From the NCBI RefSeq assembly GCF_027921745.1, contig NC_079239.1, positions 124,001-188,000 of the forward strand: a DNA stretch of 64,000 bases. The letters run 5' to 3'. Under the pieces are notes generated by a model. It worked only from the letters and a program-made list of their open reading frames with translations, did no database searches and was not told where the DNA came from. Each line of letters begins with the position of its first letter. Position 1 is the stretch's first letter. A program made the translations under genes and the position numbers. Below, piece by piece: positions 4,969 to 5,830 of the stretch. Source of the stretch: Schizosaccharomyces osmophilus. Taxonomy: Eukaryota.

Positions 4969-5830
4969 ATGACTGAAAAAAACAAATACAAAAAGCTAAA
5001 AGATGCTGATTCAGCTGACGTTCCTCGCTTGGGCACTCTTGCAACGTTTGACGGTGAACTGCCACGGTACAATGAAATCTTGAATTCTCATCTAGACGAC
5101 TTGGAAAAAGGTCATGCACCTCCGTACTCAGAAAACAGACATCAAGAAGCGTCTACCAACATGGCACAAGGAAGCGGATTCTTTATTCTTTTACGAAATG
5201 TCTTGACGGCATTATTGTGGTTGATTCTCTGGCCGGCAAAAATTGTGAGAATCCCCGAAGCAAAGCGGAGACAGGAGAATGAACTTCTTCGGCTTGGTTG
5301 GTGCTTTATTGGTTCAATCGTATTGGACTTTTGGTTTTCTTACAAATACCTTGTCCCCTTTATAAAGGAATCGATAAAAGAATCTGTAGGGGTAAACTTT
5401 CAAGCTACTGTAGCAGTTGTTTTTTTCGTCGTGGCTTTCTATATGTTCTTATTTGTTTTTTCACGTAAGTGGAATGGTGGGATTTTAATTTGATATGTTT
5501 ACTAATGGGGTACTTTTAGTGTTGGTGGATATAATCGTTATATTGATTCCTCTAGTTTTTACTTGGATTTCCTCGATTTTTTCTGGGATTTTTTCTGTGA
5601 TTACTAGTGCTCTAGGCTTCAGGATGTCATCGGATAGAAACGACTTGACGGATGATAATAGTATCCCATTAAACAGCTTGCCACCAGAGCCTGAAAACCA
5701 GTTCAACGATCGTAGTGATGATACTTTTAAACAACCGTCCTCTGAACATACCTCTGAACATACTGAGCAATCTCCAGGGTTACGCCAGGAACCGGGTCAG
5801 TCTAGGGATGTTGAAAGCGGTGGGAATTGA
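4969..5830 (+). CDS. wag: Probable wag (wtf-associated gene); 268-aa multi-TM protein with Wtf-antidote-like N-terminus
   Basis: Exons 4969-5464 and 5520-5830; the 55-nt intron (GTAAGT..actaat..TAG) joins ORFs 4951-5493 and 5495-5830 in frame. About 4 hydrophobic segments; LPRY, DLEKG and APPYS motifs. Named from its position divergent to wtf inside the 5S pair. Confidence 0.72.
5739..5762 (+). repeat. 12-bp tandem duplication in wag exon 2 (SEHT-SEHT)
   Basis: cctctgaacata x2. Confidence 0.85.

What the first reader, a model, noticed from the sequence alone, without database searches (positions are those of the whole stretch)
4969..5830. Divergent partner of the wtf gene looks like an intron-1-less, antidote-only Wtf relative
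Seen in sequence: the partner begins MTEKNKYKKL (neighbouring wtf: MKNKYTPI) and has LPRY (5059-5070), DLEKG and APPYS. A Met follows about 10 residues later (PPYSENRHQEASTNMA versus wtf PPYSASTKFIDLEMA). The DNA cctccgtactcag matches the wtf exon-1 end cctccgtattcag at 12/13, but no intron follows. Its only intron is phase 1 after ATVAVVFFVVAFYMFLFVFS, resembling wtf intron 3 after AAVLVVLAVLNICFFVLLI. Established: S. pombe Wtf antidotes carry KNK/DLEKG/LPxY/PPY N-termini whose PY motifs recruit Rsp5/NEDD4-family ligases; the poison promoter lies in intron 1; as far as I know wag function is unresolved. Inference: this gene is a diverged Wtf homolog that cannot make an intron-driven poison and may act as a co-inherited antidote, suppressor or trafficking adaptor, making the cassette a two-gene drive module.
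Basis: partly seen in the sequence, partly recalled or inferred. Interest (0 to 1): 0.9.

Follow-up and report, generated by a model that had tools for sequence, protein, structure and literature searches.

The report
Known wag gene beside spore killer
This is an already named but unstudied fission-yeast gene (wag) that travels with a spore-killer gene; it shares the killer's ubiquitin-tag signal and general layout but shows no detectable common ancestry with it, so it is likely a separate passenger, possibly selfish itself, rather than the neighbour's antidote.

Summary
The gene is real and already annotated: its 268-aa product is identical to S. osmophilus SOMG_02562, and exon, intron and spacer sizes match the published 5S–wag6–wtf9–5S unit. 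Only LPxY (33 of 34 Wag) is a canonical PY motif. KNK is confined to one subfamily (14 of 34), DLEKG lies in a different order than in S. pombe Wtf, and the 12/13-nt match is largely forced by the PPYS codons. Profile searches, hhalign, Pfam and a language-model search found no Wag–Wtf homology, while true Wtf passed the Pfam and language-model controls; S. pombe Wtf could be tested only indirectly. Antidote action on the neighbour is unlikely: Wtf rescue needs sequence-matched co-assembly, proven drivers lack wag, and Wag outnumbers wtf in S. cryophilus. Not found in print: Wag keeps a second Met 9–18 residues after its last PxY (29 of 31), has variable 21/12-bp coding repeats after its intron, and is mosaic and species-clustered, all as in wtf. 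Best reading: a separate, likely Pub1/Pub3-ubiquitinated membrane protein family spread by 5S cassettes. Boldest reading: a second, self-contained toxin–antidote family.

The parts
4969..5464 (+). wag exon 1 (496 nt; residues 1-165 plus one base)
   Evidence: same size as published wag6 exon 1
5465..5519 (+). single wag intron, 55 nt, GT-AG, phase 1 (splits codon 166)
   Evidence: S. octosporus wag8/wag9 exon 1 of 520 and 523 nt are also phase 1
5520..5830 (+). wag exon 2 to stop: last hydrophobic helix, repeat region, polar tail
5059..5070 (+). LPRY, canonical PY motif (L/P-P-x-Y)
   Evidence: LPxY in 33 of 34 Wag
5098..5112 (+). DLEKG; [DNY][LM]EKG in 34 of 34 Wag, exact DLEKG in 16 of 34
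5116..5127 (+). APPY, second, non-canonical PxY site
5161..5163 (+). in-frame Met65 behind both PY-type sites; candidate start of a short PY-less isoform (untested)
   Evidence: Met 9-18 residues after the second PxY in 29 of 31
5547..5602 (+). 21-bp and 12-bp coding tandem repeats (7- and 4-residue xGI units), copy number variable among Wag
5739..5763 (+). 12-bp coding repeat in the polar tail
3926..4968 (.). divergent wtf-wag spacer, 1043 bp
   Evidence: same size as published wag6_wtf9 region
2883..3925 (-). neighbouring five-exon wtf (published wtf9): exons 3925-3811, 3612-3379, 3333-3097, 3056-3013, 2963-2883; 236 aa; no exon-4 repeat
3674..3684 (-). FLEX-like site (1 mismatch) in wtf intron 1
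   Evidence: listed for wtf9 as a hit below the paper's confidence cut-off
2052..2170 (-). 5S rRNA gene downstream of wtf
6160..6278 (-). 5S rRNA gene downstream of wag; direct repeat of the first, 2 of 119 positions differ

Best explanation
This is wag6/SOMG_02562, a two-exon member of the wag family, which shows no detectable homology to Wtf; it likely encodes a 3-4-pass membrane protein that is ubiquitinated through its conserved LPxY by Rsp5/NEDD4-type ligases (Pub1/Pub3) and sorted to the endosome and vacuole, and it likely multiplies as the second gene of a 5S-flanked cassette without acting as the antidote of the neighbouring Wtf poison. Shown: gene structure, identity, motif conservation, direct-repeat 5S flanks, species-specific clades, mosaic paralogues, variable coding repeats. 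Inferred: cytosolic N-tail, ligase binding, vacuolar sorting, spread by 5S recombination plus gene conversion, independence from the neighbour's poison.
For: Identity and published unit. Family limited to three fission yeasts: 30 hits and 10 of 1.84 billion representatives at E<=0.001, all Wag-like, none Wtf. No Wtf homology: blastp E 0.14; hhalign probability 0.1-1.0%; membrane cores score at shuffle level; all-against-all best E 0.003 versus 0.001 for reversed Wag; Pfam WTF is the most frequent hit for 19 of 60 true Wtf (best E 1.4e-4) but is absent from the lists shown for 29 and 31 Wag (at most 1 member could be hidden) and for 14 pieces; the ESM Atlas gave the WTF cluster for the neighbour (rank 7, 0.81, a lead only) and no usable hit for Wag. 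LPxY in 33 of 34 with 3-8 Lys in the first 70 residues; PY-dependent sorting is established for Wtf (PMC10721834). Independence: drivers wtf25, wtf68, wtf33 have no wag; non-cognate antidotes fail, even when tethered; wag-linked S. cryophilus wtf1 is rescued by its own antidote; 11 Wag clusters against 5 wtf genes in S. cryophilus; a wag lies between two tdk genes; Wag similarity does not track neighbour similarity (Mantel rho -0.17, 8 pairs). Concerted evolution: each species forms one side of a branch at 100/98-99; four-gamete incompatibility rises from 0.06 to 0.66 with distance.
Against: No experiment on any Wag was found or run. S. pombe Wtf, which alone has DLEKG plus LPxY plus PPYS, could be tested only through Pfam and the Atlas, and Pfam sees just 19 of 60 true Wtf and missed the neighbour's single exons (3 of 3). 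Several weak parallels are collinear: PY near residue 30, PPYS then Met after 11-12 residues, near-coincident intron, heptad GI repeat. C-terminal profile alignments reach p 0.017-0.020 under lenient gaps (2 of 12 tests) and Wtf N-tail HMM scores exceed the shuffled 99th percentile in about a third of 31 Wag (fraction 0.32; reversed sequences reach the same maximum). Pure hitchhiking does not explain why 15 of 21 S. octosporus wag are intact or why the motifs are invariant. The Mantel test is small and rests on locus-tag adjacency.
Confidence: 0.5

Rival explanations
1. Wag is itself a toxin-antidote selfish gene built on Wtf logic: the full-length PY-bearing protein would be the antidote and a PY-less form starting at Met65 (internal transcription start or leaky scanning) the toxin, with the heptad repeats setting self-specificity.
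For: Met after the last PxY in 29 of 31, against a Met frequency of 0.7% in other polar parts; variable 21/12-bp coding repeats after the last intron, as in wtf exon 4/6 where they set compatibility; species-specific expansion, mosaicism, pseudogenes; more copies than wtf in S. cryophilus; found beside both wtf and tdk drivers.
Against: No intron 1 and no good FLEX site before Met65: best in exon 1 is a 2-mismatch site at 5131-5141, among 70 such in the window. No short isoform is mentioned in the passages and table 1k seen. The Met is missing in 2 of 31 and residues near it are also fairly conserved. hsp16 genes expanded in the same species without being known drivers.
Confidence: 0.2
2. One reading: Wag is a diverged Wtf that lost intron 1 and works as co-inherited antidote, suppressor or trafficking helper for the linked Wtf poison.
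For: Collinear motif parallels; fixed head-to-head linkage; all 11 repeat-less intact S. octosporus wtf are wag-linked, against 0 of 34 unlinked ones lacking the repeat, and repeat loss weakens self-rescue; wag21-linked S. osmophilus wtf41 is poorly rescued by its own antidote.
Against: No homology detected; the authors' converged PSI-BLAST defined wtf without wag; rescue needs sequence-matched co-assembly; the 11 repeat-less genes appear to be the paper's single clade, so likely one event, and the link is absent in S. osmophilus (6 of 19 against 2 of 12, p 0.43); wag-linked S. octosporus wtf make little poison transcript (20 short per 3108 long reads against 203 per 7457; per-gene test p 0.15); proven drivers lack wag.
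Confidence: 0.13
3. Wag is an ordinary host protein, a lineage-specific Rsp5-type adaptor or spore-membrane protein, whose copy number and mosaicism are side effects of sitting in a recombining 5S cassette.
For: Invariant PY and a conserved core over three species; two divergent S. cryophilus copies at 36-46% identity could be older forms; PY-bearing membrane adaptors are a common yeast class (recalled, no call).
Against: No relative in S. pombe, S. japonicus or elsewhere; cross-species identity about 55-65% against 85-89% for average orthologues; frequent pseudogenes.
Confidence: 0.17

Closest known systems
wag family (De Carvalho et al. 2022, PMC9562144)
   Same: This is wag6 of the wag6_wtf9 unit: exon 496 nt, intron 55 nt, spacer 1043 bp, divergent from wtf, between tandem 5S genes.
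   Different: Nothing structural. The paper calls the family uncharacterised; PY motif, internal Met and coding repeats of Wag were not in the passages seen.
Wtf antidotes of S. octosporus, S. osmophilus, S. cryophilus
   Same: Multi-pass membrane protein of similar size, N-tail with one canonical PY, in-frame Met 11-12 residues after PPY, variable 7-residue repeat after a phase-1 intron, gene conversion, 5S association.
   Different: Two exons against five; LPxY against PPPY; no intron 1; longer N- and C-tails; no detectable sequence similarity in the membrane core.
S. pombe Wtf antidotes and antidote-only suppressors (Pfam PF03303)
   Same: DLEKG, LPxY near residue 30 and PPYS in the N-tail.
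   Different: Order DLEKG-LPxY-LPPY in S. pombe, LPxY-D[LM]EKG-[AV]PxY in Wag; second site non-canonical; no Pfam WTF hit; suppressors are close sequence matches of their poison, Wag is not.
PY-motif membrane cargoes and adaptors of Rsp5/NEDD4 ligases (such as Sna3, Bsd2, Ear1; names recalled, no call)
   Same: Short PY motif in a predicted cytosolic tail with nearby lysines.
   Different: No sequence or Pfam relation found; those are conserved low-copy genes (recalled).

Membership tests
wag | Divergent neighbour of a wtf, between it and a 5S rDNA | tested here: met
wag | Sequence similarity to annotated wag products and two-exon structure | tested here: met
   hits include SOCG_01871, 03723, 00982 listed as wag17, wag8, wag9; exon sizes
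wtf | Profile-detectable homology to octosporus-clade Wtf | tested here: not met
   weak post-hoc C-terminal p about 0.02 in 2 of 12 tests
wtf | Homology to S. pombe Wtf (PF03303) | tested here: inconclusive
wtf | Five or six exons with intron 1 after the PY-encoding exon | tested here: not met
   single intron at codon 166
wtf | Canonical PY motif in the N-terminal tail | tested here: met
   LPxY 33 of 34
wtf | In-frame second start behind the PY motifs | tested here: met
   Met in 29 of 31; its use is untested
wtf | FLEX-driven short (poison) transcript | tested here: inconclusive
   only 2-mismatch FLEX-like sites near wag; no raw RNA reads were served
wtf | IGNxxxG 7-residue repeat near the C-terminus | tested here: inconclusive
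   7-residue xGI repeat of like position and amphipathic moment, different sequence, no HMM signal
wtf | Shared fold | tested here: inconclusive
   both models low confidence, pTM 0.22 and 0.32
wtf | Toxicity without ubiquitination; co-assembly with and rescue of a poison | not testable with these tools
   needs yeast expression assays

The most novel reading that the evidence does not exclude
Wag is a second killer-drive family riding in the same 5S cassette as wtf, either an ancient sister of Wtf diverged past recognition or a convergent copy of its design: a ubiquitin-silenced long form and a PY-less form from Met65 made without an intron-1 promoter, with heptad repeats for self-recognition. 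The cassette would then carry two independent toxin-antidote genes head to head.
Probability: 0.2. Interest if true: 0.75.

Novelty: already known. Interest (0 to 1): 0.38.

Why it matters
wag genes sit next to about half of S. osmophilus wtf drivers and their role is open. The conserved LPxY, the conserved Met65 and the variable repeats make that question testable with existing yeast assays. If Wag is toxic without ubiquitin, it is a new driver family or the missing sister of Wtf, which bears on where wtf came from. If it rescues repeat-less Wtf poisons, it would break the rule that rescue needs a sequence-matched antidote. If neither, it is an example of a passenger amplified by 5S recombination.

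Tried and rejected
No genome was held for this window, so paralogue DNA, dN/dS and the codon match in other wag copies could not be tested. Inverted-duplication origin of wag from wtf: no DNA similarity above chance. C-terminal likeness seen by eye (repeat end and the IxL motif): not supported by HMMs or hhalign. Structure: AlphaFold models poor; Foldseek found nothing; VIA-align gave only generic helical hairpins, Z up to 8.1; the Wtf model was not searched. Complex prediction of Wag with Wtf was not available, so binding is untested. Expression: no RNA holder listed, contigs only. Metagenome scan: 211 pattern matches, none confirmed. Literature search for DLEKG as a known signal: 7 listings, none relevant by title; that such acidic motifs are common in fungal membrane tails is recalled, not tested. 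A search on non-canonical PY variants was seen as a listing only and not used. Earlier scan findings: none. Rows left out: A1 used 29 of 30 hits (P0030 partial); A4 31 of 38 Wag-like proteins (7 fragments or truncations); A3 60 of 63 Wtf (P0088, P0100, P0104 short); motif counts used 34 of 38 (4 lacking the N-terminus); the tree 31 of 38. Supplement alignment rows were cut at about 400 characters, so S. pombe C-termini were not seen; they bear on the homology question. The tdk preprint's supplements were not read.

Full report
What it is. The gene runs 4969-5464 and 5520-5830 with one 55-nt phase-1 intron. The spliced 268-aa product equals S. osmophilus SOMG_02562. It lies head to head, 1043 bp from a five-exon wtf, and the pair sits between two same-strand 5S genes at 2052-2170 and 6160-6278 that differ at 2 of 119 positions. 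All exon, intron and spacer sizes match the unit annotated as wag6_wtf9 by De Carvalho et al. 2022, who named the family wag and called it uncharacterised. Their table 1s lists wtf9 among S. osmophilus loci where the other two species have no wtf, in line with a recent cassette duplication.

The family. A search with exon 1 gave 30 proteins, all from S. osmophilus, S. octosporus or S. cryophilus. A profile of 29 of them against 1.84 billion representatives gave 10 hits at E<=0.001, all Wag-like proteins of the same three species and no Wtf. In a tree of 31 rows each species is one side of a branch (100/98-99). Among 14 S. osmophilus paralogues, four-gamete incompatibility rises from 14 of 250 column pairs at short range to 929 of 1418 at long range, the signature of gene conversion. 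Hydropathy gives 2-4 membrane segments (3 in 18 of 29); the weak AlphaFold model has helices at 57-93, 103-134 and 143-196 between disordered tails.

LPxY is in 33 of 34 N-termini, [DNY][LM]EKG in 34 of 34, a PxY after it in 32 of 34. The published PY definition is L/P-P-x-Y, so only the first site is canonical. KNK is in 14 of 34, a subfamily trait. DLEKG and LPxY are in 0 of 60 Wtf from the three wag-bearing species. They are in the 32 S. pombe rows seen in the paper's alignment (one reads LPEH), but there DLEKG directly precedes LPxY, while in Wag it follows it. The 13-nt match is mostly the PPYS peptide: probability 0.018-0.055 by window codon usage, blastn E 3.8. The intron falls one codon from wtf intron 3 if the best membrane blocks are paired (with exon sizes), but the best gapped alignment of the two profiles is within the shuffled range.

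Homology tests. Neighbour against neighbour, blastp E 0.14. hhalign of 29-31 Wag against 10-60 Wtf, probability 0.1-1.0%. Segment HMMs against shuffles: membrane cores and C-termini at background; only the Wtf N-tail and whole-length HMMs score above the shuffled 99th percentile in 32% and 42% of 31 Wag, with reversed Wag reaching the same maxima. Profile alignment with window shuffles: local p 0.10-0.20; 12 regional tests gave two at p about 0.02, both C-terminal, both lost under stricter gaps, the membrane core at p 0.19-0.49. All-against-all blastp of 38 Wag and 63 Wtf: best E 0.003, reversed control 0.001. Controls: Pfam WTF is the most frequent family for true Wtf (19 of 60, best E 1.4e-4) and is not among the families shown for Wag (25 of 28 and 25 of 29 shown, hidden ones with one member at most) nor for 14 pieces; the Atlas lists the WTF cluster for the neighbour at 0.81 and nothing for Wag. 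Homology is therefore not shown. It is not excluded, because Wtf pairs across species reach only 16% identity and S. pombe Wtf was tested only indirectly. I put remote common ancestry at about one in four (judgement).

Is it the neighbour's antidote? Published data weigh against it. Non-cognate antidotes with 13-76% identity do not rescue, nor does tethering a diverged antidote. The three proven S. octosporus drivers have no wag. Wag-linked S. cryophilus wtf1 is rescued by its own antidote. S. cryophilus has 11 Wag clusters but 5 wtf genes, so at least 6 lack a wtf partner, and one wag lies between tdk genes. Wag similarity did not track neighbour similarity in 8 pairs (rho -0.17; weak). For it: all 11 repeat-less intact S. 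octosporus wtf are wag-linked (11 of 14 against 0 of 34), repeat loss weakens self-rescue, and wag21-linked wtf41 is poorly self-rescued. But those 11 appear to be the paper's single clade, the link is absent in S. osmophilus (p 0.43), and wag-linked genes give few poison reads (20 per 3108 against 203 per 7457; per-gene p 0.15).

A Met follows the second PxY at 9-18 residues in 29 of 31 Wag, where the Wtf poison start lies. Exon 2 carries 21- and 12-bp coding repeats with 0-7 xGI/xWI units among paralogues, amphipathic like the Wtf heptad (moment 0.38-0.43 against 0.34-0.49), which sets poison-antidote compatibility in Wtf. With mosaicism and pseudogenes (6 of 21 in S. octosporus) this is the profile of a selfish family, and it raises the possibility that Wag is its own toxin-antidote gene. 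Against this, no good FLEX site precedes Met65 and no transcript data could be had.

Mechanism. Most likely (0.5): a separate membrane protein, likely ubiquitinated via LPxY and sent to the vacuole as Wtf antidotes are (inferred), amplified with the 5S cassette, not serving the neighbour's poison. Rivals: self-contained toxin-antidote (0.2), host adaptor (0.17), Wtf-derived helper (0.13).

Literature seen. PMC9562144: abstract, passages, sections 6 and 14 (first parts), 11, 12; supplement 1 parts 1, 2, 43, 45; alignment file parts 1, 4, 5 (rows cut); GFF searches. PMC10721834: passages and section 8. PMC11892871: passages and section 13. bioRxiv 10.64898/2025.12.28.696746, PMC10085805, PMC11497594, bioRxiv 10.64898/2026.01.24.701316: passages only. 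Five searches found no functional study of wag in the held library; the December 2025 preprint still calls the family uncharacterised.

Verdict. Known gene, known family, open function. The antidote-only Wtf reading is not shown and its helper part is unlikely; the Wtf-like layout of Wag is real and testable. Interest 0.38.

Noticed in passing
window 2883-3925 (-), wtf9, and published tables: The neighbouring wtf lacks the exon-4 repeat; in S. octosporus all 11 repeat-less intact wtf are wag-linked (11 of 14 against 0 of 34), not so in S. osmophilus (6 of 19 against 2 of 12).
   Followed up: partly
P0051 (S. cryophilus SPOG_03602): A KNKY-type Wag fragment (E 7.8e-4) lies directly upstream of S. 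cryophilus wtf2 (table 1m), which table 1d lists without a wag.
   Followed up: no
P0039 versus window 3380-3610 (-): An S. cryophilus Wtf is 97% identical to this wtf over exon 2, against 85% for average orthologues; may reflect cross-species transfer.
   Followed up: no
S. cryophilus table 1d: wag names run to wag35 in a species with 5 wtf genes; if numbering is per species, wag far outnumbers wtf there.
   Followed up: partly
published S. osmophilus GFF: Other units are labelled Wag_wtf_sag_unit, pointing to a third cassette gene ('sag') not named in the main-text passages seen; this unit has none annotated.
   Followed up: no
P0014-P0029, P0044-P0048, after the EKG motif: Most non-KNKY Wag carry a CLCL stretch after EKG that is deleted in this gene's subfamily; possibly a lipidation site (inference).
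   Followed up: no
window 5555-5589: A contig of run X3 skips 33 nt in the repeat region, an in-frame repeat-number variant of a paralogue or allele.
   Followed up: no
window 13940-13950, 16353-16363, 18663-18673: Three exact FLEX (Mei4) sites elsewhere in the window; FLEX-like matches are enriched overall, 70 against 38 expected.
   Followed up: no
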